NCBI GenBank assembly: GCA_025839675.1
Contig: CP104013.1
Span: 850,736-870,735 of the forward strand
Source of the DNA: Candidatus Lokiarchaeum ossiferum
GTDB lineage: Archaea; Asgardarchaeota; Lokiarchaeia; Sigyniarchaeales; Promethearchaeaceae
Direction of reading: 5' to 3'
DNA: 20,000 bases
The position numbers and the translations under genes are program-made. The notes below the pieces were generated by a model, which had not been told where the DNA came from, did no database searches, and saw only the letters and a list, made by a program, of their open reading frames with translations. Shown in pieces: positions 3,460 to 20,000 of this stretch (the stretch's first letter is position 1; each line of letters begins with the position of its first letter).

Positions 3460-3697
3460 AGATCAATTAAAGTAAAGGTTTTTCGTGAGCAATAAATACA
3501 TTCATTTCTATTCCAGATACTTTTTTTTCTAATAATTCTAGGAATTTTTTTTCTAATAACCACAGTTATTGTGAAGATTTTGGAGCTTTCCTAAAAATTT
3601 TTACAATGAAAATTCCGATCTAACCACTTATGTCTTCAATAAAAACAATTTGAGAAAAATCAAAATGAACTATTATTCTTAAAAACACATTAGTAAT

Positions 3698-5704: not shown

Positions 5705-5922
5705 AATTAAAAATTCCTTTGATCAAACGACTTTTCAGTTTCATATTTTTGAAAAAAACCAGTTCTAATTAAATAATTGAAACTCTTAATCTATATTTCT
5801 CTGTTTCTAATTATAAAAAAATGGGTTTATAAAAATAATTCTTAAAGGTAAACTTTCTTCTCATTATTATATTTTAGGAAAAATAAAATTACTTGGTTAA
5901 AATGATGGAAAAAGAAAAGGGA

Positions 5923-6041
5923 GTTTCTCAGTTTGAGGTTTCGCAATATTCGAGATATCACTACTATCCACAACGCATCCGGCCTTAACTTCAGTGTTCG
6001 GAATGGGTACTGGTGTTATTCCGGACCTATGACCGAGAAAC
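5923..6041 (-). rRNA. 5S ribosomal RNA, copy 1
   Basis: The minus strand contains AACACCAGTACCCATTCCGAACACTGAAGTTAAG, the conserved 5S core. Helix I pairs: 5' GTTTCTCGGT with 3' ACTGAGAAAC. Length is 119 nt. Confidence 0.93.
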
Positions 6042-6062
6042 AATATAGATAGTGATATAAGC

Positions 6063-6070
6063 TTATTAAA
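6063..6070 (-). promoter_or_regulatory. Candidate archaeal TATA box (TTTAATAA) for 5S copy 1
   Basis: Located about -29 to -22 from the inferred 5' end at 6041. Identical in copy 2. Confidence 0.5.
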
Positions 6071-6198
6071 CTTATCGAAGTGCTCAAGATCCTTCTTAAA
6101 TTTTATTATTTACATCTGAGGCATGTTCGGTTAAAATTCATTTCAAAGAACGATAGCTTTTTTTATTTGAAAGACATGGTTGATTTAGGTGGAAATTT

Positions 6199-6666
6199 TT
6201 GAGCATAGGACTTATTTTAATTATCATCGTGTCGGTTATTGCAGGAGGATACTTTATATTACTTATAATAATTCAGTTGATAAGTAAACGCCCAAATAAT
6301 TTAGGAATTTCAGGAGGAAGATTACAAGCGTGTCCTGATATTCCTAATTGCGTGTGTAGTTATAGCAAAGAAAAAAATTCTAAAATAGAGCCATATTCAT
6401 TTTCAAAATCAATTAAAGAACAAAATTCTATTTTGATTGAAATAATCCAGAAATATCCAAGAACTAGAATAATCAAAAATGAAATAAATTATGTTTATGC
6501 AGAATTTCGTTCCCTGGCGTGGCGTTTTATAGACGATGTGGAGTTTTTTCTGGATGAAACTGCCAAATGCATCCATTTTCGCTCTGCATCTAGAATTGGG
6601 ACAAATGATTTCGGAATGAATCGAAAACGGATGGAAGATATAAGACAATTGTTGAAGGAATCTTAG
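6199..6666 (+). CDS. DUF1499-like membrane-anchored protein (TTG start)
   Basis: N-terminal hydrophobic segment, then PNCVCSY...YAEFRSLAWRFIDDVEFFLDETAKCIHFRSASRIGTNDFGMNRKRMEDIR, the DUF1499 pattern. An in-frame TGA at 6181 leaves TTG at 6199 as the likely start, with AGGTGG at 6187-6192 upstream. Confidence 0.8.
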   Translation: MSIGLILIIIVSVIAGGYFILLIIIQLISKRPNNLGISGGRLQACPDIPNCVCSYSKEKNSKIEPYSFSKSIKEQNSILIEIIQKYPRTRIIKNEINYVYAEFRSLAWRFIDDVEFFLDETAKCIHFRSASRIGTNDFGMNRKRMEDIRQLLKES

Positions 6667-6842
6667 GGGTATTGAGGCAGAAATTATTGATAATTGGAAT
6701 GTAAAGTAAGAGATTTACCAATGATCATCTTTCTCTTCTTTTTTTTAGTTAATTTGAAAAATAATAGAGCGTTTTTTTTTTGAGAAACACTAGACCCAAT
6801 ATAAAATTAGCATTACTGGTAATTGGATAAAAAGAAAAGGGA

Positions 6843-6961
6843 GTTTCTCAGTTTGAGGTTTCGCAATATTCGAGATATCACTACTATCCACAACGCATCC
6901 GGCCTTAACTTCAGTGTTCGGAATGGGTACTGGTGTTATTCCGGACCTATGACCGAGAAAC
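6843..6961 (-). rRNA. 5S ribosomal RNA, copy 2
   Basis: The 119-nt sequence is identical to copy 1, including the helix I strands and conserved core. Confidence 0.93.
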
Positions 6962-6982
6962 AATTTAGATAGTGATATAAGC

Positions 6983-6990
6983 TTATTAAA
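6983..6990 (-). promoter_or_regulatory. Candidate archaeal TATA box (TTTAATAA) for 5S copy 2
   Basis: Same position relative to the 5S 5' end as in copy 1. Confidence 0.5.
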
Positions 6991-7076
6991 CTTATCGAAG
7001 TGCTCAAGATCCTACTTAAATTTTGTTATAATCTAAAACACAAAAATCAAGAATTAAAAAGAACCAAAAAAAATAA

Positions 7077-7814
7077 TTATAATCGCATCGAATAAGGAAT
7101 TAGGGCCCGTCGCATTATTTTACTATAAGAATAAAGCACAGAACGCATAGATTTTACAAGACTAAGGATTAATTCTCCTTTAATGCTAGTATAATAGTAT
7201 TTCAACAAAATCATGTCTGCTTTGTGATCATGTTCCTTAAGGTTTGTATTTATGATGGTTTTTATCTCGGATAACCGTTCTTCCCTAATATCTTCATCAA
7301 TCAAATCTATTTTATGGAGAAATACATTAAATTGAGCTTTTGGTGCAACCAATGATTTCGAGTTTAATGCTTCTATTAGATCTTCCAAAATTTGATCCTT
7401 AAATTTATCAAACTGACTGATATCCATTACAAAGATGATAGAATCAGATTCACCAAAAGCTTGCTCTTGATCTAACCCAAGCCAACGTTCTATTTCTTGA
7501 CCCGCAGAATCTGCAACCCCTGCTGAAACATCCAACCAATTATAGGTATAATTTTCAATTCCTCGAGTTGGTTCCAAAGGATCATCAATCAAGGTTTGTG
7601 GACTTGAGTCTTCGAAAAACACACTCCGTATAGTAGATTTTCCTGCTGCGGGGGGACCAATGAACAATATTCGCCTGATCGATTCATCTTCATTTGCAAT
7701 TCCGAGCATTCGCATTAAAAAAGCATCGGTAGGCTCCCCTTCTTCCTTATTGGCATCAATTAATTCAGCCACTTTTTTCGAGACTTCAATTGAGACCTTT
7801 TCTTCTTCTGTCAT
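7077..7814 (-). CDS. Rag/Gtr-like (Ras-superfamily) small GTPase with about 45-aa N-terminal extension
   Basis: G1 GPPAAGKST, TRGIE switch region, G3 DSAGQE, G4 HKID. HKxD, followed here by LIDEDIREER, resembles RagA HKMDLVQEDQR. Confidence 0.82.
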   Translation of the reverse strand: MTEEEKVSIEVSKKVAELIDANKEEGEPTDAFLMRMLGIANEDESIRRILFIGPPAAGKSTIRSVFFEDSSPQTLIDDPLEPTRGIENYTYNWLDVSAGVADSAGQEIERWLGLDQEQAFGESDSIIFVMDISQFDKFKDQILEDLIEALNSKSLVAPKAQFNVFLHKIDLIDEDIREERLSEIKTIINTNLKEHDHKADMILLKYYYTSIKGELILSLVKSMRSVLYSYSKIMRRALIPYSMRL

Positions 7815-8763: not shown

Positions 8764-9529
8764 TTACCGTAGGAGATTCATTCCTGGTTCTATGCCCGTC
8801 GGAGCGACTTTCGACACTTTCATCATTGCGACACTAGAAATTAAAACGATCATCACATTATCATTTCCAGCAATTTCGTGCGTTGTTGCATCAAGCAACA
8901 CAAAAAATCGCACAATTTCACCAGCATCTAAAATAGTGTTGGAGTGTACTTCATCATAGAATGCCATGCCATATGTATTATTTATGGCTGCACTATTCCA
9001 AAAATACGCTTCATCATTTAGAGCAGAATTATATGATAATCTTGACTCATTTAGCGAACCAATGAACACAGAAACTTCAATGGCAGATTCTGACAGATCA
9101 ACTTCACCCGTACCTAAGACTAAACGCATATTCCATACAAGCCCTTCGAGTTTACTATTTCCATCAGCGTCGTAACCTACGACGAGTCCGCCCTCTACTA
9201 TCATGAATTTTTCCACAGATTTATTTTTGTGTGTGAATAAAATTTTGCATGGCAGATGAAGCTTGCTGCAGTGCCTGTTGCCCCGTTGCACTGAGTTGTT
9301 GTTGTAATGTTGATCCCATAGTGAGGATTACAAATGCAACTCCAGCTGCAGTGATTATAAAGGCAATCAAGATGATTGCGGCGGTCATCCCTTCATTTGC
9401 TTTTCGACCTTTTTTGGTACGGCGACGTCTGATCCGGGCGTTGGTTGCTTTATCGGCATTAATCTTGCGGATTTCCTGACGAGAATCGCAAGAACTTGAT
9501 TGCAATTTGCTGCTCATAACAGATTTCAC
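8764..9529 (-). CDS. Archaellin/type IV pilin-like structural protein, apparently frameshifted: N-terminal part 9221..9529, C-terminal part 8764..~9228 in another frame
   Basis: N-terminal frame has KKGRKANEG|MTAAIILIAFIITAAGVAFVILTMGSTLQQQLSATGQQALQQASSAMQNFIHTQK-stop, a class III signal peptide-like sequence plus the archaellin alpha-helix. The adjacent frame continues NKSVEKFMIVEGGLVVGYDADGNSKLEGLVWNMRLVLGTGEVDLSESAIEVSVF. Removing one A from the A5 run at 9224-9228 joins them. Confidence 0.75.
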
Positions 9530-9667: not shown

Positions 9668-11449
9668 TTAGAGAATTGCAACACCAAAACCACCAATCAA
9701 CTCACCAGCTACTTGACTGATCACAATAATCTCTAAACCCGCAATAATATAATATTGAGACAAGTATTTGGTAACTTTCATCCAAGTACCTCGTTGAGGA
9801 ATAATTATGGCCAGACAAGCGTAAATTGGCATAGTTAAATAATAGATGGTGAAATACAAATCAGTAAAAAATGCAGGAGGTGGTTTACCTAACTGTAAAT
9901 TCATCCCTTGGACATCTTGCAGAGCACCCATTGTGACATTCAATAGGAAAAGAACATCTTTCATAAAGATCATAATCCCAATATTAATAATAGTGAGCAT
10001 CAGTAAAGTCCCTTTGAAGACCCCAATTACCTGCTGCCTATCCCGACGGAGCTTCAATATTTTTTCAACATTGGTTGAGATAAATTTGGATATTATTTCG
10101 GTATTACCTCCTATATCTAAACTAGAAGTAAAAATTCGAAGAAAACGATCAATAATACTGCTGGATGTGCTATCAGAAAACCATTGCCACGCAATAATCG
10201 GATCAATCCCAAATTTTGATTGGGTGTATAATAATTTAATATCAGTAGTCAAAGGACCAAATTGTTCCCGAGAGATGATGTTAACAGAATCAAAAATGCT
10301 TCCTCCTAATAATGCTGTTGTAGCGCCCAAAGTGCGAATAAAAACGGGGAAATTAGCATCCCGTCGTTTTATAATATCTTCAAATTTTTCAGCAACATAA
10401 CCAGGATAAAACATGGAGATTCCAAATATGATCATGAAAACTGGGAGAGAGATCACAGAATTACCGTCAGCATCTTTTAGAAAGAAAGTAATGAATGCCA
10501 AAATTGGCATGAAAACAAAAACACAGATTAAAAAGGAATAAAGAACTTTTTCGTACTCAGCGGTTTTCCTTTGAATATTCACCAAACCATCTTTGGGGGA
10601 GATCGCATAAAAGGCAACCATAAGAGCAATATAAACAAGTTCTATTACCCCCAAAATGAGAAATAAATTCCGAGTATTGGCAGCTTCATCACTTCCAAAA
10701 AGAAACATCATCAAAAGAAAGGTAATAGATATAAAACTCAATGAAGTGGAAAGTGCGGTAAACATATCGTTAAGTACCTCAAGGGATTTCAACTTGCGAG
10801 TATAATCCGAAATATAACCGTTTAAAACCGATTGCTGTTCTTTTAAGAAATAATCTTCTAAATTTTCACCCGCATCCAAAGCTTGGGAAAAACGGGAGAG
10901 AAAATCACCAAATCTGGAACTTGCTGTCGTAGCACTTACTTTTTTAATGCTATCTAAATATCCAAGATTCCACTCTTTCGCCATGGTACGAATTCGTTTT
11001 ACCTCTAAAGCAATTAGTCCAAAAGATTTTTCCCGACGACTTACATTCTCAAAAAGTTGATCTCGACTAGCTTTTGAGGTAGAAATACCACCCATATAGG
11101 TAACAAGCATAGGAAGAGCAGTATCAATTTGTTCTTGACGTAAAGAGCGTTTAAAATAGGGAAAGATAAAAACTATAATGAATCCAAGAAAAAAACATGA
11201 AATTGATAAAGGAAAAATTATCCCAGAAATCATAGGGCTCATTTCCAATAAAATTCCGATGATTATTCCGGACCCTAGACCACCCACTGTAATAGGGAGA
11301 AGAATTTTAAATAAATATTCACCTATGGATTTCTGTATTCCTGCTTGGATTAGTGTTTGTTGGAACGAATCAACAAGTTTCCGATAAACATCTTGCATTG
11401 TTTCTTTGAAACTTTGTTTTTTATTCTCTTCGTCTCGTTTTTCCATCAT
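9668..11449 (-). CDS. arlJ: Archaellum polytopic membrane platform protein
   Basis: 593-aa multi-TM T2SF/TadC-like protein (FPYFKRSLRQEQIDTALPMLVTYMGGIS..., GARTLGATTALLGGSIFD-like segment) immediately downstream of the arlI-like gene. Confidence 0.85.
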   Translation of the reverse strand: MMEKRDEENKKQSFKETMQDVYRKLVDSFQQTLIQAGIQKSIGEYLFKILLPITVGGLGSGIIIGILLEMSPMISGIIFPLSISCFFLGFIIVFIFPYFKRSLRQEQIDTALPMLVTYMGGISTSKASRDQLFENVSRREKSFGLIALEVKRIRTMAKEWNLGYLDSIKKVSATTASSRFGDFLSRFSQALDAGENLEDYFLKEQQSVLNGYISDYTRKLKSLEVLNDMFTALSTSLSFISITFLLMMFLFGSDEAANTRNLFLILGVIELVYIALMVAFYAISPKDGLVNIQRKTAEYEKVLYSFLICVFVFMPILAFITFFLKDADGNSVISLPVFMIIFGISMFYPGYVAEKFEDIIKRRDANFPVFIRTLGATTALLGGSIFDSVNIISREQFGPLTTDIKLLYTQSKFGIDPIIAWQWFSDSTSSSIIDRFLRIFTSSLDIGGNTEIISKFISTNVEKILKLRRDRQQVIGVFKGTLLMLTIINIGIMIFMKDVLFLLNVTMGALQDVQGMNLQLGKPPPAFFTDLYFTIYYLTMPIYACLAIIIPQRGTWMKVTKYLSQYYIIAGLEIIVISQVAGELIGGFGVAIL

Positions 11450-11485: not shown

Positions 11486-13273
11486 TTAGAGTGCGGCATC
11501 GTCTTCTTCCTTCATACGCCGTTTCATTGTATCTACTACTTCTTGAGGTAATTTCTTTTTGTTTTTATAAGTGGTTAATATTCGAAAGATAGTATGGTAA
11601 TTTTGAATTCCAAGTTCTCCAAACGCTTCTAGGATATGTCGTTTCGTGCGTAATTCGTCATAGAGCATTTTAATATCTTTTCGTTTTATTCCCCGTTTGA
11701 CTGCGATTTTTTGTTCAAATACATAGGATTGATTTCTAAATATATGAGTATCATCCCCTGCATCCCATGCAAAAAGCTCAACATACCTAAATTTATCTTT
11801 TTTTGGAAGATAATCAACTAATTCATTGCAAGAAATGCAACGACGTAATAATTTTCCCGTTTTTCCTTGAACTGCCATTTGTATATAGACAAGATCAAGT
11901 AAAGCAATAAATGCAGGAGGGACATTAATAGGCTTCCCAGTCATACGATTCACAAATGCTCGTACACTACCAGCGTGGAAAGTAGCAACCATCGGGTGAC
12001 CAGTTTGCATTGCTTGAAAAGCCATGTTTCCTTCTTCACCACGAATTTCTCCAATAATTATTAAATTTGGACGTTGTCTGAGAGCTGCCTTTACAAGAAG
12101 AAAAATATCCACGGGATTTCCAGCTGAAGCAGGACGGGTGACTTCTCGAGTCCAATTTTGGTGAGGCACTTTTACTTCTGGAGTATCTTCAATACTTACG
12201 ATTTTTGCATTAGGTCCAATAAAAGTGAGTAAGGCATTCAAAGAGGTCGTTTTTCCAGATGCAGTTTCACCAACAACCATCATAGAATGATGAGATTCCA
12301 GGGTCATCCATAAATATGCACATAATTGGGAACTAAGAGTGCCCCATCCAATAAGATTGACTACACTGATAACATCTTCACTAAACTTACGGATTGTGAA
12401 ATTTGATCCATGCATGGACACATCTGTTCCATAGACGATATTAATACGAGAGCCATCGGGTAAAGCAGCATCAACCACAGGATTGGAGTGGCTCGCAGGA
12501 CGTCCAGAACGTTCGCTAAGATATAGGGCAAACAAATCAAGTTCTTCATCCGTTTCAAATATAATGGTACTTTCAAGAGATTCAAAGATTTTATGTTCTA
12601 CAAAGAGTGGACCTTTCCCATTACAAGTTATATCTTCAATATATGGATCATTAATTAGTGGTTGGAGTTTTCCTAAACCAATCTTATTACGAATAAAATA
12701 ATAACGGACCCGTTCAGCGACGACGGGATCGAGCTTCAATTTGGAACTCTGTTTCAATTTGGACAGCAATTTCAAAATTGGATTTGAAGAATCTGTTTTT
12801 TCATAGGAAGTTCCTGATCCTCCACCACCGATGGAAGTATCAATTATACGAGCAGCAAACTTGTCATATAATTTAATATGATCTTCTTTATTCTCTGGAA
12901 TATCATTGTACTTAATCAAAGAGGTTAAGGTGGACATAATTTTTTCTTGAGCATCTGTAGTAGCTTGATTTAATGTAGGTTCTATTGAAGAATATAAGAT
13001 TCTGGAAGGCCCGGGATAAATATGTATAAATACAGGTCCATCTGCAGGGTATAAAACATTGGGATATTCCAATTTTTTATGCTTGCGCTCTAATTTTTCA
13101 ATATATACAGGCACCCCAATTTCTTCATTGTAGTTCTGAATTAAATAGTCCAGTACATGAGGGTATTTGGCAGTAATTTGCCTTAATACAACATTTTGAT
13201 TAATTTTGGCTTCTGCTTGGGCCATTTCTTGCGTGGACATTGTTTCTGTCATGTTTAATTCAGCATTCAACAA
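11486..13273 (-). CDS. arlI: Archaellum assembly/motor ATPase
   Basis: Type II/IV secretion ATPase: Walker A VVGETASGKTTSLNALL, IVSIEDTPEVKVPHQNWTREVTR, Walker B-like NLIIIGEIRGEEGNMAFQAMQTGHPMVATFHA. Confidence 0.92.
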   Translation of the reverse strand: MLNAELNMTETMSTQEMAQAEAKINQNVVLRQITAKYPHVLDYLIQNYNEEIGVPVYIEKLERKHKKLEYPNVLYPADGPVFIHIYPGPSRILYSSIEPTLNQATTDAQEKIMSTLTSLIKYNDIPENKEDHIKLYDKFAARIIDTSIGGGGSGTSYEKTDSSNPILKLLSKLKQSSKLKLDPVVAERVRYYFIRNKIGLGKLQPLINDPYIEDITCNGKGPLFVEHKIFESLESTIIFETDEELDLFALYLSERSGRPASHSNPVVDAALPDGSRINIVYGTDVSMHGSNFTIRKFSEDVISVVNLIGWGTLSSQLCAYLWMTLESHHSMMVVGETASGKTTSLNALLTFIGPNAKIVSIEDTPEVKVPHQNWTREVTRPASAGNPVDIFLLVKAALRQRPNLIIIGEIRGEEGNMAFQAMQTGHPMVATFHAGSVRAFVNRMTGKPINVPPAFIALLDLVYIQMAVQGKTGKLLRRCISCNELVDYLPKKDKFRYVELFAWDAGDDTHIFRNQSYVFEQKIAVKRGIKRKDIKMLYDELRTKRHILEAFGELGIQNYHTIFRILTTYKNKKKLPQEVVDTMKRRMKEEDDAAL

Positions 13274-13415: not shown

Positions 13416-14177
13416 TTAAGCCGCAGAAATAACTGAAACCGCAATTCCAAAGGCAGAATCAATATTAAAGACAATTAATTGAGATATTTCATCTTGTGCT
13501 AACCATTTTAAAACTGAACACGCTTTGAAGGCCGTTCCATCTTCTTCTCGCTGTTCAAATCGAAGAATTAAGTCACATAAATTCATAAAATTTAATTCGA
13601 TATAGTCATATAACTCGGGGAAGTAAGTTGGAATAGTAATAATGACTGTTTTTCCACCAATGGTTAATCTTTTACACAATTCAAAGAAAAACATTACTTG
13701 TTTAGGATCAAAATTCTTTCCGACAAAATAAGTCAGGGAATCAATAATAATCACTTCGCTTTCAATGTTGGATATTAGATCAATTAACTTAAACATTACA
13801 TCAGGAGTACGTAGAACTTTTCCTGATTGAGACACAACAGGAATAATGTCAAACTGTCCAGTTAAAAAGAAATCTTCTGCTCTTTCCCAAGATAGAGAGA
13901 ACATATTTTGCACTAAACCTTTGACTGTCATCTCACTTGTGATATAGGAAACGGTCTTTCTACATCGCAAAGCACCATAAGCAATTTGTTGACACCATAC
14001 AGACTTCCCTGCCCCCATATCCCCAGCAAATACTGCAAGAGATCCACATTTTACTCCACCCCCCAGATTTCGATCCAATTCTTCATTCGTTGTGAGGAAA
14101 TATTCGGAGAAATCTTTTTCTGGCCCTTTTTTTTCTTCTTTATCTGCAAATGATTCCATAATTCTGTTTCCTCGCAT
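13416..14177 (-). CDS. arlH: Archaellum KaiC/RecA-like ATPase ArlH
   Basis: LGGGVKCGSLAVFAGDMGAGKSVWCQQIAYGAL (Walker A) and SEVIIIDSLTYF (Walker B). Gene order next to arlI/arlJ. Confidence 0.88.
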   Translation of the reverse strand: MRGNRIMESFADKEEKKGPEKDFSEYFLTTNEELDRNLGGGVKCGSLAVFAGDMGAGKSVWCQQIAYGALRCRKTVSYITSEMTVKGLVQNMFSLSWERAEDFFLTGQFDIIPVVSQSGKVLRTPDVMFKLIDLISNIESEVIIIDSLTYFVGKNFDPKQVMFFFELCKRLTIGGKTVIITIPTYFPELYDYIELNFMNLCDLILRFEQREEDGTAFKACSVLKWLAQDEISQLIVFNIDSAFGIAVSVISAA

Positions 14178-14192
14178 TAATTCGTAATGATC

Positions 14193-14729
14193 TTATGATA
14201 GGGTGTTATAAATAAATGAATCTCCGACCCCATTAGGGGTTGAAATTCGGTAATAATAGTATTGCTCCGCTATTGTTACATTAAACGTAATTGTGATATT
14301 TAAAAGCTCATGAGGATCCCAATAAGTGGGATTGTGGGACAAATCACCTAACATAGTAAACGACCAATAACATCCAGCACTGATAATTGCAGCACCTAAA
14401 TTCGAACTGGGAATCCATCTATCATAGACATATGGCCCACAATCAAGAACTTGAGTGACATTTGTAAAAACATCCATAGAGTCCAATTGATAAATAATTT
14501 CTGTTCCAATATTTTCTATCACTAAATTAATAGCCATTTCAGAAGGATCGCGCGAAGCATTAATTAATTGAATGCTTGTATGGATGCGAGAAAATTCCCG
14601 ATCGTAATTGTTTTCCTGAGCTTCTGTTATCAATTCATTAGAACTTTGAAAAGCTGAATAAAGCATAGATCCCACTAACAGAGTACAAAGAAATAACATT
14701 CCAAAGGAAATTGATACTGATTGTCCCAT
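14193..14729 (-). CDS. arlF: ArlF-like archaellum stator protein
   Basis: Single N-terminal hydrophobic helix (MGQSVSISFGMLFLCTLLVGSMLYSAF) and a beta-rich extracytoplasmic domain (AINLVIENIGTEIIYQLDSMDVF). Position next to arlH. Confidence 0.65.
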   Translation of the reverse strand: MGQSVSISFGMLFLCTLLVGSMLYSAFQSSNELITEAQENNYDREFSRIHTSIQLINASRDPSEMAINLVIENIGTEIIYQLDSMDVFTNVTQVLDCGPYVYDRWIPSSNLGAAIISAGCYWSFTMLGDLSHNPTYWDPHELLNITITFNVTIAEQYYYYRISTPNGVGDSFIYNTLS

Positions 14730-14764: not shown

Positions 14765-15244
14765 TCAAATTGAAAATTGATAAATTTCACTAATTCCTGA
14801 TATAGCGATAACTATTTGATGAGAACCAGAATTAATTGACTCACCATCAGGAAAATACATGCGAACTATAATTGTCTCGAGTGGATCCCAAATATTGTTT
14901 CCATTGTCGTTCAAGATAGTTGCATTCCATCGAAAAAGACTTGTGTCCGCACTGTCAAGGTAATAATAGTCCCCATCTAAGAAGACATCCATTTCAGAGA
15001 AGGACCCCACAGATGCATCCCCAAGATTCTTCACATAACCATATATTGTTGAATTCCCCGCTTCTGTGTTTCCTATAGCAAGTACTTCAAAATCAGTATT
15101 AATTTGATTAGCAAAATTTTGACCGCTGTTGTTAATTGATGCACCTATTGCAGCCGCTACAGTAAAAGCCGCTGCGATGACAACTATAGTTGTTACAATC
15201 GACGCTGTAGACATTATTCCAGTTGATACTGCATTATCACTCAT
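14765..15244 (-). CDS. arlG: ArlG-like archaellum stator protein
   Basis: N-terminal helix IVTTIVVIAAAFTVAAAIGASINNSGQNFANQINTDFEVLAIGN, resembling the ArlG N-terminus, plus a beta-rich domain. First gene of the minus-strand cluster. Confidence 0.65.
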   Translation of the reverse strand: MSDNAVSTGIMSTASIVTTIVVIAAAFTVAAAIGASINNSGQNFANQINTDFEVLAIGNTEAGNSTIYGYVKNLGDASVGSFSEMDVFLDGDYYYLDSADTSLFRWNATILNDNGNNIWDPLETIIVRMYFPDGESINSGSHQIVIAISGISEIYQFSI

Positions 15245-15409
15245 ATAGAATACCTAAAAGGTTGACCTTTAGTTACTAGTTCTTAGTGAATTCCTTGCCA
15301 AATATTAAGAGTTTAAAATGATTTTTTGGAAAGATTTTGAAATAATTCTAAGGTCTTTTTTTGAAGGGAGAAATAATAGGGAGAAGATTGCATACTTTCG
15401 TTAATAGTC

Positions 15410-16819
15410 ATGACAGAAGCAAAAGATTTATTATTAGTTTGGATCGGTCAAGCGGGAGTAAATATTGCCGAAAGATTTTGGGCATATGCATATGAAACGC
15501 TAGGTATTCCAGTACCAATCAAAACGGGAGATATTCCCGCAGACATTGATAAGATGCTCGATAAGAAGTTAGAAATGACAGAATTCTATACAGAATACGA
15601 AATTGAAGAAGCACGTCGGATGTTCTTCTACAATCTGCTAGATGATAAAGATCGAGCTAGTAATAAACAAAAAAAATATATCCCGCGATCTATTTTTATT
15701 GATTTGGAAGCCCAACCAGTTCGGAGTTTTCATGAACGAAATTCCCATATTTTTCCAAAGGATGATTTTATCTACAATACATTCGGATCTCATTCAATGT
15801 GGGCACGGGCCAAGCGTATTGGTACCAATTTAAAACCATACATCCTTGATCGAATTCAATCTCTTATTCAAATGCGTGCGATTCAAAACTTAGAAGGCAT
15901 AATAATAATTCATGCAACGGGAGGTGGAGCAGGATCTGGACTTCTTGATAGTGTATTTGAAGTTCTGCAAGATAAGTTCCCAAAAGTCCCTACCCTCACT
16001 TTTTCAATTTTTCCAAGTCGAAAACTCAGTGGAAATGTTATTGAAGCATATAATACAATTTATGCAGCAAACAGTTTATTAGCAAATGCAAGTGCAACAG
16101 TGTTACTTGACAATGATAAAATAATTAATTTGGTAAAAGAAAAATATCAGATTGAATCACCCACTTATGAAGATATTAATATGATAATCTCTCGGTTAAT
16201 ATTCAGTGTGATTATGCAAATTGCAATGCCTGGTGCCATCATTCGGGCGGATTTCAATAAATTATTCACAAATTTAGTACCCTACAAATACATGAAATTT
16301 TTGTTAGCAGGTATTGCTCCCTTTAAATTTGATGAATTTTCTCAAAATTCTACAGAAGATCTAGTGAAAGAGCTCACTGATGAGCAGAATTATATGGCCG
16401 ATGTAAACTTTGGTACAGGTAAATATGTATCTACCATGTATTTCTTCATGGGAAAACTAGGTCCTGAAGTGAAAACTCCTCTCCGAATTGCCAAAGAAAA
16501 TATGGATTTTATGCCATGGATTCCGACTGGTATGTTCATAGGAATTACTCCACGAGAAAAAATGACCCTTGATGGGATGCCTCTTTTACGTCAAGGAATT
16601 GTTTTAGCAAATAATTCGGCAATGCGGTTTATATTTCAAAGAACTATGGCACAATTTCAAGTGATGTTTAATAAAGGTGCATTTATGCACCATTTTAAGA
16701 AAGAAAACATAGATGCGGAAAAAGAATTGAAACAAGCCGCAGCCAATATTACACGAATGATGAAATTTTATGAGATTGCAGAAAAATCTACAACTAAAAA
16801 ACGAACTGTTAAATCCTAA
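15410..16819 (+). CDS. Tubulin-family GTPase (artubulin/eukaryotic-tubulin-like)
   Basis: WIGQAGVNIAE (T1), PRSIFIDLEAQPV (T3 region), IIIIHATGGGAGSG (tubulin signature at 15920..15940), FSIFPSRKLSGNVIEAYN, LLDNDKI, PTYEDINMIISRL, ADFNKLFTNLVPYKYMKFLLAGIAPF (T7/H8), and a C-terminal FMHHFKKENIDAEKELKQAAANI helix. Length is 469 aa. Confidence 0.93.
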   Translation: MTEAKDLLLVWIGQAGVNIAERFWAYAYETLGIPVPIKTGDIPADIDKMLDKKLEMTEFYTEYEIEEARRMFFYNLLDDKDRASNKQKKYIPRSIFIDLEAQPVRSFHERNSHIFPKDDFIYNTFGSHSMWARAKRIGTNLKPYILDRIQSLIQMRAIQNLEGIIIIHATGGGAGSGLLDSVFEVLQDKFPKVPTLTFSIFPSRKLSGNVIEAYNTIYAANSLLANASATVLLDNDKIINLVKEKYQIESPTYEDINMIISRLIFSVIMQIAMPGAIIRADFNKLFTNLVPYKYMKFLLAGIAPFKFDEFSQNSTEDLVKELTDEQNYMADVNFGTGKYVSTMYFFMGKLGPEVKTPLRIAKENMDFMPWIPTGMFIGITPREKMTLDGMPLLRQGIVLANNSAMRFIFQRTMAQFQVMFNKGAFMHHFKKENIDAEKELKQAAANITRMMKFYEIAEKSTTKKRTVKS

Positions 16820-16847: not shown

Positions 16848-17738
16848 CTAAACATTGTTTAATTTCAGAACTCCATTAGAAATCGCTTTTTTTTCTATAT
16901 GATTAACAACATTGAAATATATTGTGATTTCATTCTCATTAACGATTTTTTTTAATACTTGAAGTTTAATTTCGGTTCCTGGAAGTACCATACCGGTAAA
17001 TTGGCAATATATTTCCTTAACATTTGAAGGATTCCCTCCAGATTCTCGGTTGATAATAGAACTTACAGCTATAGCCAGAGTAGCAGTCCCCTGTAAAATA
17101 TTACCGGGTAATTTAACAGAATGTGCAAATTTTGGAGAAGTATGAATTGGGAAGACTATATTTGTACATCCATCGTAGACATAGGGAAGACATAGATCAA
17201 TGAATATATCTTCAACCCATTCAGGTTTTCCTTGCCATTTGTTATCCAAATAGGACGGCATAGTGGGAAGGTTACTAATCTCTGCCCCTTCTGGAGAACA
17301 TTTCACACCTCGCAACATAATGCCTGTGTATTCGGTAAACACTCTATATCCTTTTCTGTCGGTGGCTTTAAATTCTCCAATAAAATGACTTCCCGCACGA
17401 TGAGGTTTTATCGCTGCAATCTGCCCTTCGATCTGTAGACGATCCTTGGGTTTAATCAACCTATGGACAATAATATGTTCTGAATAATGAACCCCACGGG
17501 CTAAAAAATGTTGAGGAAAGTTTTGATCGATGATAAATTCAGAAATATTTTCAATTATTGGCCAATTTACAACAACTGGAAAGAGTGGATGAGCTACGAG
17601 CCCACCCTTTTGTTCATCATCGAAATAATAAGGATTGGAATCTTTTATTGATGCAGCATAATTTGTGGTTTGTCGCCAAGTTACTCGCGTTTTATATGGT
17701 TTAAGGATAGTTCCAACATATTTTAAATCGAGTTCCAT
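16848..17738 (-). CDS. MaoC/hot-dog-fold dehydratase-like protein
   Basis: TRVTWRQTTNYAASIKDSNPYYFDD...LVAHPLFPV, HSEHIIVHRLIKPKDRLQIEGQI, and a second hot-dog half with HTSPKFAHSVKLPGNILQGTATLAIAVSSII. Confidence 0.75.
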   Translation of the reverse strand: MELDLKYVGTILKPYKTRVTWRQTTNYAASIKDSNPYYFDDEQKGGLVAHPLFPVVVNWPIIENISEFIIDQNFPQHFLARGVHYSEHIIVHRLIKPKDRLQIEGQIAAIKPHRAGSHFIGEFKATDRKGYRVFTEYTGIMLRGVKCSPEGAEISNLPTMPSYLDNKWQGKPEWVEDIFIDLCLPYVYDGCTNIVFPIHTSPKFAHSVKLPGNILQGTATLAIAVSSIINRESGGNPSNVKEIYCQFTGMVLPGTEIKLQVLKKIVNENEITIYFNVVNHIEKKAISNGVLKLNNV

Positions 17739-18028: not shown

Positions 18029-18796
18029 GTGAATCATATGTCTGTACAAATCGAGGATATTTCTAATACCTATATTATGACAAAATCAGAAACTTTGTTT
18101 AAGATTTTGCAAGCGTTGAGCTTTAAGGGTGGTAGTTCAAGCACATCTTCATTAAAAATTGCTGTAATGCTGGATGATAACATTATCGCCGCAGCTTTGA
18201 AGGGTGGAGAACTTTTAAAATTCATTGAAAAAGATGAAGATGAATACGCCCTCACAGCTGAAGGTGAACGAATTTTAGAAGTCAGTAAAAAAGAACAACA
18301 AGATATGGTGGCTAAAAGCTATTATGCTATTGAGGGCTATCGAGATATTGTTTTTCGCATGAAAATGGCAAGCAATCAGATGCAAATGAAAGAACTTGAA
18401 AAAGCATTCTATATATTGGAAAAAGATATGCGTGATGAACTAAGAAAAGTAATTGTTGATAGTTTTATAGATTTTGGTCTTTATGCAAATGTTTTAGAAA
18501 CTAATAATAATGCAGCCAATCCAGGAGTTTTATTAACCGCTAATGGAGTTTCGCAATTAGATGCAGTATTAGCAGCGAAAAAACGCAAACGTAAGGGAGG
18601 TACTGCCCCCACAGCAGCCAGTTCTGGTGGAGGCATTGTAAGTGATTTATCTTGTCAATCTTGTGGAAAAGCGATTATGCCAGACTTTGCCATGTGCCCC
18701 TATTGCGGTACTGCGTTAAAACGTTCCTGTAGCAATTGCGGTAAGGAATTACAACCAGGCTGGAAAATGTGTCCCTTCTGTGGAACCGGACAATAA
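18029..18796 (+). CDS. Winged-helix-like protein with C-terminal double zinc ribbon
   Basis: TLFKILQALSFKGG...KIAVMLDDNIIAAALKGGELLKFIEKDEDEYALTAEGERILE, then CQSCGKAIMPDFAMCPYCGTALKRSCSNCGKELQPGWKMCPFCG. The start may be ATG at 18038. Confidence 0.75.
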   Translation: MNHMSVQIEDISNTYIMTKSETLFKILQALSFKGGSSSTSSLKIAVMLDDNIIAAALKGGELLKFIEKDEDEYALTAEGERILEVSKKEQQDMVAKSYYAIEGYRDIVFRMKMASNQMQMKELEKAFYILEKDMRDELRKVIVDSFIDFGLYANVLETNNNAANPGVLLTANGVSQLDAVLAAKKRKRKGGTAPTAASSGGGIVSDLSCQSCGKAIMPDFAMCPYCGTALKRSCSNCGKELQPGWKMCPFCGTGQ

Positions 18797-18944: not shown

Positions 18945-20000
18945 ATGAGTATTGGCGCAGATGATAAAGATGATCTTTTGTTTATCTTCATTGGTCAACG
19001 AGGACTTCAAATCGGTAGTATCTTCTTTAATTTAATTAAGGACGATTATAAAGGAAAGCGATATGATATTTTGGATTTTTTTTCCAAGGTATTTTTTATT
19101 TGTGAAACCGAAAGTCAATTCCGAGAAATTGGAACCATGATAGAAGGATATGTTCCCGAAGAAAATGTGCTTTTAATGGGAGAATTAAATACAAGCGGAG
19201 ATTTATGGTCAAATATTGAAGAAAATGACGATATATTCGCAAGTAGAGTTTTTGCTCCATTAATGTACGCTGTTGATCAACTCGCAAAGCCAAATATTCT
19301 TCTTTTTTATGACCTTTCAAATGGAAAACAAGCAGGAATTTGTGATTATTTATTGATCAATTTTCCTTTAGTAAAACAACAAATGCCAATCTATGTGATT
19401 GCCACAACATCTATCGATGAAGGAGCAGGTGCTTTATCTATTTATTGGAGTATTTTAGGGCTAAACTCGATCATTCAAGGATCCACAGCAAAAGCTTGTA
19501 TTCTATTAGATTATGAAGCAATTGGAAATTCAATTTTTCTAAAACGAATTAAGAAAATGGATGATATTGATTTTGAGAGTTATAACTATGTTGTAGCCCA
19601 ATTAATTTACTCCATCACATATTATGATAGAGAACCATATTCAAATGCTGTGCCATTTTGTCAAATGATTGATAAACTCGTGATTTTCAATGACATGAAA
19701 TTCATCATTCCCTTCATGACAATGCCTCGTCGTGAATTGATCGAAGATGAAACGTTTTCGGGCTATTTAAACGAGTTGGTAAATGATTGCAACCTATTTT
19801 CAATGAATTATAAACGCCCCATAGATGAAAATGGCGTTGAACAAGATTATCCTAAAATTAGTCTCGCTAATGCATTTATTGCCTTTGGGGAAAAACAAGA
19901 TACACACTATCTAAACTTAATCCGGAATAATTTACCTCCGATCATGGAATATTTGCCTGGCACTAAAACGTTTTATACATATCCCCGCGGGGACCCTTTC
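18945..20000 (+). CDS. Divergent tubulin-like paralogue, 3' truncated by window edge (352 codons in window)
   Basis: Open frame from ATG 18945 to 20000 without stop, not in the ORF track. DLLFIFIGQRGLQIGSSIFF matches DLLLVWIGQAGVNIAERFW of the upstream tubulin. Collinear matches continue at ACILLDYEAI/TVLLDNDKI and DKLVIFNDMKFIIPFMTMP/TNLVPYKYMKFLLAGIAP. Confidence 0.75.
   Translation, partial: MSIGADDKDDLLFIFIGQRGLQIGSIFFNLIKDDYKGKRYDILDFFSKVFFICETESQFREIGTMIEGYVPEENVLLMGELNTSGDLWSNIEENDDIFASRVFAPLMYAVDQLAKPNILLFYDLSNGKQAGICDYLLINFPLVKQQMPIYVIATTSIDEGAGALSIYWSILGLNSIIQGSTAKACILLDYEAIGNSIFLKRIKKMDDIDFESYNYVVAQLIYSITYYDREPYSNAVPFCQMIDKLVIFNDMKFIIPFMTMPRRELIEDETFSGYLNELVNDCNLFSMNYKRPIDENGVEQDYPKISLANAFIAFGEKQDTHYLNLIRNNLPPIMEYLPGTKTFYTYPRGDPF

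What the first reader, a model, noticed from the sequence alone, without database searches (positions are those of the whole stretch)
15410..16819. Eukaryotic-type tubulin homologue beside an archaellum operon
The signatures match alpha/beta-tubulin across the whole length, including a C-terminal helix region like the eukaryotic FLHWYTGEGMDEMEF...EAESN segment. FtsZ-like NxDxxD is absent. The gene is divergent from arlG with only 165 bp between. Artubulin/OdinTubulin-like proteins are rare in archaea, and a link to motility machinery would be new to me.
Basis: partly seen in the sequence, partly recalled or inferred. Interest (0 to 1): 0.8.

Follow-up and report, generated by a model that had tools for sequence, protein, structure and literature searches.

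The report
Lokiarchaeal AtubC tubulin beside archaellum operon
This gene is AtubC, the already catalogued but unstudied third eukaryote-type tubulin of the Asgard archaeon Lokiarchaeum ossiferum; it sits back-to-back with the genes for the archaeal swimming motor in every relative examined, which suggests a testable role for it.

Summary
Window 15410-16819(+) encodes a 469-aa true tubulin (Pfam Tubulin 1.8e-34 and Tubulin_C 3e-12). Its best solved relatives are Asgard AtubB/AtubA (about 1e-57), then BtubA/B and alpha/beta-tubulin. The AF2 model has pTM 0.87 and matches only tubulins. The gene starts 165 bp from a divergent arlG-arlF-arlH-arlI-arlJ operon.

The window comes from Ca. Lokiarchaeum ossiferum B-35. 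The protein is UYP44417.1, mislabelled 'CetZ'. By taxon, position and its own clade it is almost certainly AtubC, named in 2026 and not characterised.

AtubC keeps most GTP-binding residues. It has Lys at the catalytic T7 position (beta-like), a family-specific GGGAGSG box, a conserved H1-S2 insertion and a mostly basic tail. dN/dS is 0.03.

I found none of the following in the papers I could search:
- The arl <> atubC arrangement is kept in all 11 related Lokiarchaeal contigs examined (about 9 distinct AtubC sequences), down to 44% AtubC identity.
- A nucleotide-site-dead 'pseudo-tubulin' lies two genes downstream of atubC, and its relatives sit inside Heimdallarchaeial arl operons.
- The Heimdall (Kari-type) atubAB pair also abuts an arl operon.

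A functional tubulin-archaellum link is plausible but unproven.

The parts
15410..16819 (+). atubC: 469-aa tubulin. Lys-type (beta-like) T7 loop, GGGAGSG G-box, conserved H1-S2 insertion (~res 34-87), basic C-terminal tail.
15245..15409 (.). 165-bp divergent intergenic region between arlG and atubC. It holds a block, TTTTTTGGAAAGATT (about 15324-15338), that is identical in three close relatives and degenerate in two more. It may be a shared promoter or regulatory element (untested).
14765..15244 (-). arlG (archaellum stator protein), first gene of the divergent operon
   Evidence: NCBIfam ArlG 2.5e-13 (below cut-off); Pfam Arch_flagellin 2e-06
14193..14729 (-). arlF (archaellum stator protein)
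   Evidence: NCBIfam ArlF 1.8e-14 (below cut-off)
13416..14177 (-). arlH (KaiC-like archaellum ATP-binding protein)
   Evidence: NCBIfam FlaH/ArlH 3e-40 / 4.5e-39 (below cut-off); Pfam KaiC ATPase
11486..13273 (-). arlI (archaellum motor ATPase)
   Evidence: NCBIfam equivalog 'archaellum ATPase motor FlaI', 604 bits against cut-off 550; exact match NEF87_000698
9668..11449 (-). arlJ (archaellum platform membrane protein)
   Evidence: NCBIfam ArlJ/FlaJ 9.6e-87 (below cut-off); Pfam T2SSF; NEF87_000697
9221..9529 (-). N-terminal half of a split archaellin: signal peptide plus hydrophobic helix, ~100 aa
   Evidence: NCBIfam flagellin 5.7e-07; the same two-ORF split occurs in nine related loci; it is collinear with intact 252-255-aa archaellins in L007 and L008
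8764..9291 (-). C-terminal half of the split archaellin (globular domain; probable ATG at 9204)
   Evidence: tblastn: 40-41% identity to the C-terminal part of the intact archaellins of L007 and L008
7077..7814 (-). Gtr1/RagA-like small GTPase. It flanks the arl operon here and in L002, L003, L004, L007, L008 and L014.
   Evidence: Pfam Gtr1_RagA 1.9e-20; synteny
18029..18796 (+). Winged-helix / AAA_assoc_C / double zinc-ribbon protein. It is conserved between atubC and the pseudo-tubulin in nine of the related Lokiarchaeal loci.
18945..20000 (+). Pseudo-tubulin: the first 352 aa of a ~650-aa protein that runs off the window. It has a divergent tubulin fold with all nucleotide-binding motifs lost. 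In relatives an acidic linker and a coiled coil follow.

Best explanation
SHOWN. The ORF is a tubulin-family protein from Ca. Lokiarchaeum ossiferum. It forms its own small clade, is under strong purifying selection, and is encoded in a conserved block in Lokiarchaeia.

INFERRED identity. It is the AtubC paralogue named in 2026. Taxon, position and monophyly all fit, but I could not compare accessions.

INFERRED from sequence:
- It binds GTP, because the T1, T2, T5, N206, Y224 and N228 equivalents are kept.
- It cannot activate hydrolysis in the subunit below it, because Lys284 replaces the catalytic Glu, as in beta-tubulin and AtubA.
- It would therefore act as the 'beta-like' member of a heterodimer or polymer. 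Its partner would be encoded in the same block. One candidate is the Glu-bearing AtubB, by analogy with AtubB2 displacing AtubB. The other is the adjacent pseudo-tubulin.
- The conserved H1-S2 insertion and the basic tail should give it different lateral contacts and partners from the AtubAB mini-microtubule.

The conserved block is: RagA-like GTPase, split archaellin, arlJ-I-H-F-G, then divergently atubC, a wHTH/Zn-ribbon protein and a pseudo-tubulin, followed by atubB-atubA.

INFERRED from gene context. The atubC / Zn-ribbon / pseudo-tubulin module is functionally coupled to the archaellum. The most likely role is a cytoplasmic scaffold that positions, anchors or times assembly of the motor. 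This operon has no ArlX or ArlCDE. Functionally this would resemble the effect of CetZ1 on archaellum-base assembly in Haloferax.
For: Identity:
- Exact protein match to L. ossiferum UYP44417.1.
- Pfam, PDB and fold evidence all point to tubulin.
- NJ tree: the family is monophyletic at 100% bootstrap, apart from AtubA/BtubA, AtubB/BtubB, alpha, beta and gamma.
- In relatives the orthologue lies 4-8 kb from atubB-atubA. L001's AtubB is near-identical to the solved L. ossiferum AtubB. This matches the description of AtubC in PMC13394414.

Motifs and selection:
- GGGAGSG, K284, N235 and N257 are invariant across the family; position 253 is Tyr or Phe.
- dN/dS is 0.029.

Linkage to arl:
- The arl <> atubC arrangement is present in all 11 related Lokiarchaeal contigs examined (about 9 distinct AtubC sequences), at 91-44% AtubC identity. 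These are L001-L009, L013 and L014. Two of them were found through ArlJ rather than through tubulin.
- Unrelated genes are inserted at various points in these loci, yet the arrangement survives.
- Pseudo-tubulin against the AtubC family: hhalign 94.6%, E 7e-8 over 380 columns.
- Relatives of the pseudo-tubulin sit co-directionally downstream of arlJ in two Heimdall arl operons. Evidence: hhalign 97.2%, E 3e-11; best PDB hit Heim-beta-tubulin 2.7e-5.
- The Heimdall atubAB pair lies 3 kb from, and divergent to, an arl operon.

Precedent: CetZ1 influences assembly and polar placement of ArlD1 (PMC13644373). A haloarchaeal TFF locus co-localises with CetZ2.
Against: - There is no expression, interaction or localisation data.
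- The one held preprint on L. ossiferum motility describes crawling on actin-driven protrusions, distinct from archaellar swimming.
- The Lokiarchaeal genomes share extended synteny here, so adjacency within the class could be simple inheritance.
- In L009 two genes, one a PIN-domain protein, separate arlG from atubC, so a shared promoter is not obligatory.
- L016 has the Heimdall arl operon without atubAB.
- The Heimdall evidence rests on two lineages, because L010 and L015 are the same organism.
- The T3 loop and the G-box Thr are altered, so GTP binding is not certain.
- The equation with the published 'AtubC' rests on taxon, position and clade, not on accession matching, because the tree figure is not held.
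Confidence: 0.5

Rival explanations
1. AtubC belongs only to the AtubAB mini-microtubule system, as an alternative beta-like subunit, a nucleator, a cap or a regulator. Its position next to the arl operon is inherited synteny, or the trace of a co-transferred genomic island, with no mechanistic connection to motility.
For: - AtubC always lies within ~4-8 kb of atubB-atubA where contigs allow.
- PMC13394414 reports no conserved context between taxonomic groups beyond atubAB.
- Both tubulins and archaella are patchy in Asgard archaea, as expected for a mobile island.
- Flanking genes such as the RagA GTPase and zinc-ribbon proteins are also syntenic.
- In L009 two genes (one a PIN-domain protein) are inserted between arlG and atubC.
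Against: - Tubulin-like genes lie inside Heimdall arl operons even where atubAB is absent (L016).
- The arl-tubulin adjacency recurs with a different architecture in Heimdallarchaeia.
- Between the same genomes AtubC diverges at the rate of the Arl accessory proteins and the pseudo-tubulin (44%), not at the rate of AtubB (73%).
Confidence: 0.4
2. It is a CetZ/FtsZ-type protein, as the GenBank product name 'Tubulin-like protein CetZ' says.
For: Only the annotation string and the shared Pfam Tubulin/FtsZ GTPase domain.
Against: - It has the Tubulin_C domain, not FtsZ_C.
- No NCBIfam model matches at E <= 0.01.
- The 60 best of 170 PDB sequence hits, and the 50 best fold hits, are all Atub, Btub or eukaryotic tubulins.
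- The T7 loop lacks NxDxxD.
Confidence: 0.02
3. It is a decaying, functionless paralogue of AtubA/B.
For: - It evolves faster than AtubB (44% against 73% identity over the same genome pair).
- It has an altered T3 loop and G-box.
- The family is very small: 9 clusters among 5.8 billion proteins.
Against: - dN/dS is 0.029.
- The ORF is intact in every homologue recovered, with 109 invariant positions that include nucleotide-contact and H8 interface residues.
- The insertion is conserved (E64, E66, A68, R69, F73, Y74).
Confidence: 0.03

Closest known systems
AtubC clade of Lokiarchaeial tubulins (Lowe, Ettema et al., Sci Adv 2026, PMC13394414; bioRxiv 10.64898/2026.02.15.705738)
   Same: It is Lokiarchaeial, forms a monophyletic third tubulin group, and is encoded within 10 kb of the atubAB tandem. 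This ORF is the L. ossiferum gene that fits all three criteria.
   Different: Nothing sets it apart; it appears to be a member. The paper gives no function or biochemistry, and its text and held supplement do not mention the archaellum operon.
AtubA/AtubB (and AtubB2) mini-microtubule tubulins of Ca. L. ossiferum and Kariarchaeaceae (PDB 9f6t, 9hxc, 24rt, 9tqj)
   Same: Same fold and the best sequence matches (1e-50 to 1e-57). AtubC shares the Lys-type T7 loop with AtubA and beta-tubulin. All are encoded in the same locus.
   Different: - Only 26-30% identity.
- A ~30-residue H1-S2 insertion.
- GGGAGSG instead of GGGTGSG.
- T3 loop GS.S.[WFY]ARA instead of GAGNN[WF]A.
- A mostly basic rather than acidic tail.
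- Faster divergence.
OdinTubulin (PMC8956254)
   Same: Published trees tend to pair Odin tubulins with AtubC. Both are Asgard tubulins outside the A/B clades.
   Different: According to PMC13371889, OdinTubulin is encoded as a single gene, all its subunits retain catalytic activity, and it assembles as a homopolymer. AtubC has Lys at the catalytic position and lies in a multi-tubulin locus. I did not test the relationship here because no Odin sequence was available.
Eukaryotic beta-tubulin
   Same: Lys at the position of alpha-Glu254. The GTP-contact residues N206, Y224, N228, E183 and the T1 loop are kept. The model superposes at TMq 0.82-0.84.
   Different: ~25% identity, the H1-S2 insertion, and no acidic tail. 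There is no evidence that it sits in a 13-protofilament lattice.
CetZ1/CetZ2 of Haloferax volcanii (PMC13644373; TFF preprint 10.64898/2026.04.22.720090)
   Same: These are tubulin-superfamily proteins tied to the archaeal motility machinery. [quoted passage not shown] This is the nearest functional analogue for the proposed role.
   Different: A different family (CetZ, with an FtsZ-like C-terminal domain). AtubC is not a member.
ArlX / ArlCDE cytoplasmic archaellum scaffold proteins
   Same: The operon order arlG-arlF-arlH-arlI-arlJ is the crenarchaeal type (my own knowledge), in which arlX would precede arlG. Here that position holds the divergent atubC module.
   Different: There is no sequence relationship. 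The replacement idea is pure inference.

Membership tests
Tubulin proper (alpha/beta/gamma/Btub/Atub) | Tubulin GTPase domain plus the tubulin-type C-terminal domain (PF00091 + PF03953) | tested here: met
   E 1.8e-34 and 3e-12, both above the gathering cut-offs
Tubulin proper (alpha/beta/gamma/Btub/Atub) | Full-length tubulin fold | tested here: met
   AF2 model pLDDT 81.5, pTM 0.87. All 50 top Foldseek PDB hits are alpha/beta-tubulin or BtubA, TMq 0.79-0.84.
Tubulin proper (alpha/beta/gamma/Btub/Atub) | Canonical G-box [SAG]GGTG[SA]G | tested here: not met
   The G-box is GGGAGSG, with the Thr-to-Ala change invariant in all 10 family members. The contacts are mainly backbone (my own knowledge), so I read this as a variant, not a loss.
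AtubC clade (PMC13394414) | Lokiarchaeial origin | tested here: met
   Exact match to Ca. L. ossiferum B-35 UYP44417.1
AtubC clade (PMC13394414) | Encoded within 10 kb of the atubA-atubB tandem | tested here: met
   Met in orthologous loci L001, L002, L003, L005 and L014, where the gap is about 4-8 kb. L001's AtubB is near-identical to the solved L. ossiferum AtubB. The window ends before the expected position, so this is inferred for the window itself.
AtubC clade (PMC13394414) | Monophyletic group distinct from AtubA and AtubB | tested here: met
   NJ tree with 200 bootstraps: 100% support. The method is crude and has no CetZ, FtsZ or Odin outgroup.
AtubC clade (PMC13394414) | Same sequences as the tips of the published tree | not testable with these tools
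   Fig. S1A/B are images and are not held. No accession list was found in the supplement.
Catalytic (alpha-like, Glu-bearing) tubulin | Acidic residue at the T7 position equivalent to alpha-Glu254 | tested here: not met
   Lys284, invariant in the family
CetZ / FtsZ | FtsZ-type C-terminal domain, T7 NxDxxD motif, and a match to curated CetZ/FtsZ models | tested here: not met
   No FtsZ_C hit. No NCBIfam hit at E <= 0.01. T7 reads RADFNK. No FtsZ or CetZ among the top PDB sequence or fold hits.
Archaellum (arl) operon | ArlI motor ATPase | tested here: met
   NCBIfam equivalog, 604 bits against a cut-off of 550
Archaellum (arl) operon | Archaellum-specific ArlH, ArlJ, ArlF and ArlG | tested here: inconclusive
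   For each gene the best-scoring families are Arl/Fla models (ArlH 4.5e-39, ArlJ 9.6e-87, ArlF 1.8e-14, ArlG 2.5e-13), but all score below the equivalog cut-offs. Gene order G-F-H-I-J.
Archaellum (arl) operon | Archaellin with a class III signal peptide | tested here: inconclusive
   Present only as two ORFs (9221-9529 and 8764-9291) that correspond to the N- and C-terminal halves of intact archaellins found in L007 and L008.
Archaellum (arl) operon | Cytoplasmic scaffold ArlX or ArlCDE, and the prepilin peptidase | tested here: not met
   No further ORF lies within arlG-arlJ, and no FlaC, FlaD/E or peptidase hits appear among the window ORFs that were scanned. Not every window ORF was scanned, and these genes may lie elsewhere in the genome.

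The most novel reading that the evidence does not exclude
Asgard archaella carry tubulin-family cytoplasmic components. The nucleotide-dead pseudo-tubulin (in both Loki- and Heimdallarchaeia) and, in Lokiarchaeia, AtubC would form or recruit a scaffold at the motor base. This scaffold would stand in for ArlX/ArlCDE and physically couple the rotary motility organelle to the AtubAB mini-microtubule cytoskeleton. That would mean a tubulin-motility organelle association predating eukaryotes.
Probability: 0.25. Interest if true: 0.85.

Novelty: already known. Interest (0 to 1): 0.55.

Why it matters
Asgard tubulins are the closest prokaryotic relatives of the proteins that build eukaryotic microtubules, yet their role in the cell is unknown. 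AtubC in particular has been named but never studied.

Three results here give a concrete hypothesis that can be tested in a cultivated organism. AtubC is a conserved, beta-like, strongly selected paralogue. It is always encoded back-to-back with the archaellum operon. A related pseudo-tubulin is embedded in Heimdall archaellum operons. The hypothesis is that part of the Asgard tubulin repertoire serves the motility machinery.

If this is true, it adds a new class of archaellum accessory proteins. It also bears on how tubulin paralogues specialised before eukaryogenesis. If it is false, the locus is still a useful marker of a tubulin-plus-archaellum island that seems to move or persist as a unit.

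Tried and rejected
- A scan of GTDB representative genomes for AtubC found nothing. L. ossiferum itself was not returned, so the source may be masked or absent from the collection. I do not count this as evidence of absence.
- A scan of the same collection with AtubA/B gave only three loci: one Heimdall and two bacterial BtubAB.
- A profile search with the AtubC alignment found no further members. The exhaustive HMMER search found only the known 44% clade, then generic tubulins at <=31% identity. The two top 'hits', P0014 and P0015, are mis-assembled or duplicated eukaryotic alpha and beta tubulins.
- The first AF2 model, built from 10 sequences, was poor in the C-terminal half (pLDDT 62). It was replaced by the 14-sequence model.
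- The Heimdall 508-aa gene between arlB and atubA is a signal-peptide, TM-anchored surface protein. It is unrelated to the Lokiarchaeal pseudo-tubulin or to L001's 508-aa ORF.
- The Heimdall 471-aa gene after arlJ is a coiled-coil protein with a possible winged-helix end, judged by eye; it is not tubulin-like.
- A search for inverted repeats that could explain the inverted archaellin pair in L001 found only a 12-nt pair, at chance level.
- The alignment of the intergenic regions gave one short conserved block. I did not pursue it as a regulator site.
- Wollweber et al. 2025 (Cell) is not held. What I say about AtubB2 rests on PDB molecule names and my own memory of the abstract.
- L018 (ArlJ 37% identity) is too short a contig to show what lies upstream of arlG.
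Full report
**1. The observation**

Window 15410-16819 (+) is an ATG-initiated ORF of 469 codons. It matches the Pfam Tubulin/FtsZ GTPase domain (E 1.8e-34) and the tubulin-specific C-terminal domain Tubulin_C (E 3e-12).

Against all PDB sequences the best matches are:
- Heimdallarchaeial AtubB (7.7e-57)
- L. ossiferum AtubA (4e-56) and AtubB (6e-50)
- BtubA/B and eukaryotic alpha/beta-tubulins (about 1e-47)

These alignments cover residues ~87-465. No FtsZ or CetZ chain is among the 60 best of 170 hits.

The neighbour on the other strand, 14765-15244, has ArlG as its best NCBIfam hit, though below the curated cut-off. The gap is exactly 165 bp. ArlF, ArlH, ArlI and ArlJ follow on the minus strand. 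ArlI passes its equivalog cut-off with 604 bits against 550.

**2. Source and identity**

An exact-sequence look-up places the protein in Ca. Lokiarchaeum ossiferum B-35. It is UYP44417.1 / WP_457918670.1 on a 6.04-Mb contig. The ArlI next door is NEF87_000698. GenBank calls the tubulin 'Tubulin-like protein CetZ', which the tests above contradict. No NCBIfam model matches at E <= 0.01.

A 2026 paper (PMC13394414, and its preprint) divides Asgard tubulins into AtubA, AtubB and AtubC. It says AtubC is confined to Lokiarchaeia, is encoded within 10 kb of the atubAB tandem, tends to group with Odin tubulins, and has an unresolved deep position in the tubulin tree. No function is given.

In the closest relative of the window (L001, AtubC 91% identical) the orthologue lies 5.4 kb from a tubulin pair. 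The second gene of that pair is almost identical to the solved L. ossiferum AtubB. The same layout occurs in L002, L003, L005 and L014.

A neighbour-joining tree of 39 tubulins recovers the family as a clade with 100% bootstrap. It is separate from AtubA/BtubA, AtubB/BtubB, alpha, beta and gamma.

I therefore identify the ORF as L. ossiferum AtubC. The one step I could not take is matching accessions to the published tree, which is an image.

**3. Anatomy of the protein**

The family is tiny. It comprises nine 90%-identity clusters among 5.8 billion proteins. Nothing closer than ~31% identity exists outside it in an exhaustive HMMER scan.

Across ten members 109 positions are invariant.

Nucleotide-contact positions that are kept:
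- T1 loop GQAG
- T2 loop Asp98/Glu100
- T5 loop and Glu212
- Asn235, equivalent to N206
- Tyr253, equivalent to Y224 (Tyr or Phe across the family)
- Asn257, equivalent to N228

Derived features found throughout the family:
- The G-box is GGGAGSG.
- The T3 loop is GS.S.[WFY]ARA instead of GAGNN[WF]A.
- The residue equivalent to the catalytic alpha-Glu254 is Lys284, as in beta-tubulin and AtubA.
- About 30 extra residues sit in the H1-S2 loop, with a conserved 'E.EEARR.FFY' helix.
- The C-terminal tail is basic in most members, rather than acidic.

An AlphaFold2 model built from 14 sequences reaches pLDDT 81.5 and pTM 0.87. Low confidence is confined to residues 37-59 within the H1-S2 insertion, a short loop at 307-311 and the tail. 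Its 50 best Foldseek matches in the PDB are all alpha/beta-tubulin or BtubA, with TMq 0.79-0.84.

Between the window and L001, dN/dS is 0.029, so the gene is under strong purifying selection.

Over the same pair of genomes AtubC has diverged to 44% identity while AtubB remains at 73%.

**4. The neighbourhood**

I fetched the contigs of all AtubC relatives that were long enough, plus two loci found independently through ArlJ. All 11 related Lokiarchaeal contigs show atubC divergent from arlG-arlF-arlH-arlI-arlJ. They are L001-L009, L013 and L014, carry about nine distinct AtubC sequences, and span 91% down to 44% AtubC identity. In the short contigs L006 and L009 only part of the arl operon is visible.

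The conserved block is:
- a Gtr1/RagA-like GTPase
- a split archaellin
- arlJ-I-H-F-G
- then, divergently, atubC, a winged-helix/zinc-ribbon protein and a ~550-740-aa protein
- a variable stretch
- atubB-atubA

Unrelated genes come and go inside this block. Examples are the MaoC dehydratase in L. ossiferum, a beta-lactamase and a flavodoxin in L002, a transposase and a methyltransferase in L005, and two genes, one a PIN-domain protein, between arlG and atubC in L009. The core order survives them all.

Every Loki-type ArlJ I could place on a long contig is next to atubC.

**5. Unexpected relatives**

The ~550-740-aa protein begins at window 18945 and runs off the end. It has no Pfam hit. Even so, its first ~420 residues align end to end with the AtubC family (hhalign 94.6%, E 7e-8, 380 columns). 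It aligns less well with AtubA/B (86.7%). All of its nucleotide-binding motifs are lost: the G-box reads SNGKQAG, N206 is Tyr and T7 is Gln or Asp. An acidic linker and a coiled coil follow. Its dN/dS is 0.018. In the NJ tree the split of AtubC plus this 'pseudo-tubulin' from all other tubulins has 88% support. Long-branch attraction is possible.

In a Kariarchaeaceae-like Heimdall genome (L010, which is the same organism as L015) the atubAB pair lies 3 kb from, and divergent to, an arl operon with the order arlB-x-arlG-F-H-I-J. This AtubA is near-identical to the one characterised in 2026.

Tightly packed downstream of that operon's arlJ is a 400-aa protein whose best PDB hits are all tubulins (Heim-beta-tubulin 2.7e-5). 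Its closest profile match is the Lokiarchaeal pseudo-tubulin (hhalign 97.2%, E 3e-11).

A second Heimdall lineage, L016, has ArlI 73% identical to that of L015. It keeps this in-operon pseudo-tubulin although it has no atubAB nearby. A euryarchaeal-type arl operon with che genes (L017) has no tubulin-like gene.

**6. Interpretation**

Shown: the fold, the family, the organism, the derived motifs, purifying selection and the conserved gene order.

Inferred from sequence: AtubC binds GTP but, like beta-tubulin and AtubA, cannot activate hydrolysis in the subunit beneath it. It should therefore act in a heteromeric polymer. Candidate partners encoded in the same block are the Glu-bearing AtubB and the pseudo-tubulin. 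From my own memory of Wollweber et al. 2025, AtubB2 can replace AtubB; an AtubB-AtubC pairing in place of AtubA would be the analogous case. The H1-S2 loop makes lateral contacts in microtubules (established knowledge), so the conserved insertion argues for a lattice or partner different from the AtubAB tube.

Inferred from context: the atubC / Zn-ribbon / pseudo-tubulin module serves the archaellum. The operon has the crenarchaeal gene order (my own knowledge) but no ArlX or ArlCDE, so a cytoplasmic scaffold is missing. [quoted passage not shown] A haloarchaeal TFF locus also co-localises with CetZ2.

Against this reading:
- There are no expression or localisation data.
- The held preprint describes L. 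ossiferum motility as crawling, not swimming.
- Synteny within Lokiarchaeia may simply be inherited.
- The Heimdall support rests on two lineages.

I give the coupled reading about 0.5 and the 'microtubule system only, adjacency inherited' reading about 0.4.

**7. Novelty**

The gene and its clade are already in the literature and in GenBank, and the organism is the one in which Asgard microtubules were discovered. The feature itself is therefore already known.

Full-text searches of the held library found no paper that connects Asgard tubulins with archaellum clusters. PMC13394414 states that genomic context is not conserved between taxonomic groups. The following therefore appear unreported and are the part worth following up:
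- the conserved arl-atubC arrangement
- the pseudo-tubulin
- its presence inside Heimdall arl operons
- the Kari-type atubAB-arl adjacency

Noticed in passing
window 18945-20000 (+), running off the window end; full length in L001:13523-15499, L002:12147-14186, L003:11818-14031, L005:11710-13347, L014:1709-3670: A conserved ~550-740-aa protein with no Pfam hit. Its N-terminal ~420 aa form a full-length but nucleotide-site-dead tubulin fold, closest to AtubC. An acidic linker and a coiled coil follow. dN/dS is 0.018.
   Followed up: partly
L015:13575-14777 (+) and L016:13618-14814 (+): A 400-aa divergent tubulin-like gene sits co-directionally downstream of arlJ inside Heimdallarchaeial arl operons. 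Its best profile match is the Lokiarchaeal pseudo-tubulin (hhalign 97.2%). It is present even in L016, which has no atubAB nearby.
   Followed up: partly
L010:8680-11263 (atubA, atubB) and L010:23-5675 (arl operon); L015 is the same organism: The Kariarchaeaceae-type atubAB pair lies 3 kb from, and divergent to, an arlB-x-arlG-F-H-I-J operon. A gelsolin gene lies 4 kb further on. The 2026 papers I could read do not mention this context.
   Followed up: partly
window 8764-9529 (-): The archaellin is split into two ORFs: a ~100-aa signal-peptide/hydrophobic-helix part and a ~146-175-aa globular part. The same split occurs in nine related loci. L007 and L008 also carry an intact 252-255-aa archaellin that is collinear with the two halves.
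   Followed up: partly
L001:3251-4030 (+) compared with window 8764-9529 (-): In the 91%-identical relative the split-archaellin pair is inverted relative to arlJ, and extra genes (a DinB-like gene and a 508-aa ORF) are present. No convincing flanking inverted repeats were found in the window; the only pair is 12 nt.
   Followed up: partly
window 5909-6109 and 6829-7029; 5S rRNA at 5923-6040 (-) and 6843-6960 (-): Two 5S rRNA genes lie within a 201-nt direct repeat (99% identical) spaced 920 bp apart. They bracket a DUF1499 ORF (6199-6666).
   Followed up: partly
window 7077-7814 (-): A Gtr1/RagA-like small GTPase flanks the distal end of the arl operon here and in L002, L003, L004, L007, L008 and L014. 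By my own analogy with bacterial MglA it could be a polarity or regulatory GTPase for the motility module.
   Followed up: no
window 18029-18796 (+): A winged-helix / AAA_assoc_C / double zinc-ribbon protein is conserved between atubC and the pseudo-tubulin in nine of the related Lokiarchaeal loci. It could be a regulator or adaptor of the module.
   Followed up: no
window 1-3462 (-) and 3698-5704 (-): Two large paralogous proteins carry repeated Cys/His (CPxC...H.C) modules and a Top1-type zinc ribbon. A homologue lies beside the RagA GTPase in L008.
   Followed up: no
window 15410-16819 (GenBank UYP44417.1): The public product name 'Tubulin-like protein CetZ' is a misannotation. The protein has a tubulin-type C-terminal domain and matches no NCBIfam model at E <= 0.01.
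   Followed up: yes
L009:9564-14021: Downstream of the AtubC gene this contig carries bacterial-looking genes (POTRA/ShlB, MotA/ExbB-ExbD, DsbA-like). It may be a chimeric assembly or a case of horizontal transfer.
   Followed up: no
window 16848-17738 (-): The MaoC-like dehydratase wedged between atubC and the Zn-ribbon gene is present only in the L. ossiferum lineage (window and L001). It is the fastest-evolving gene of the block (73% aa identity, dN/dS 0.10).
   Followed up: partly
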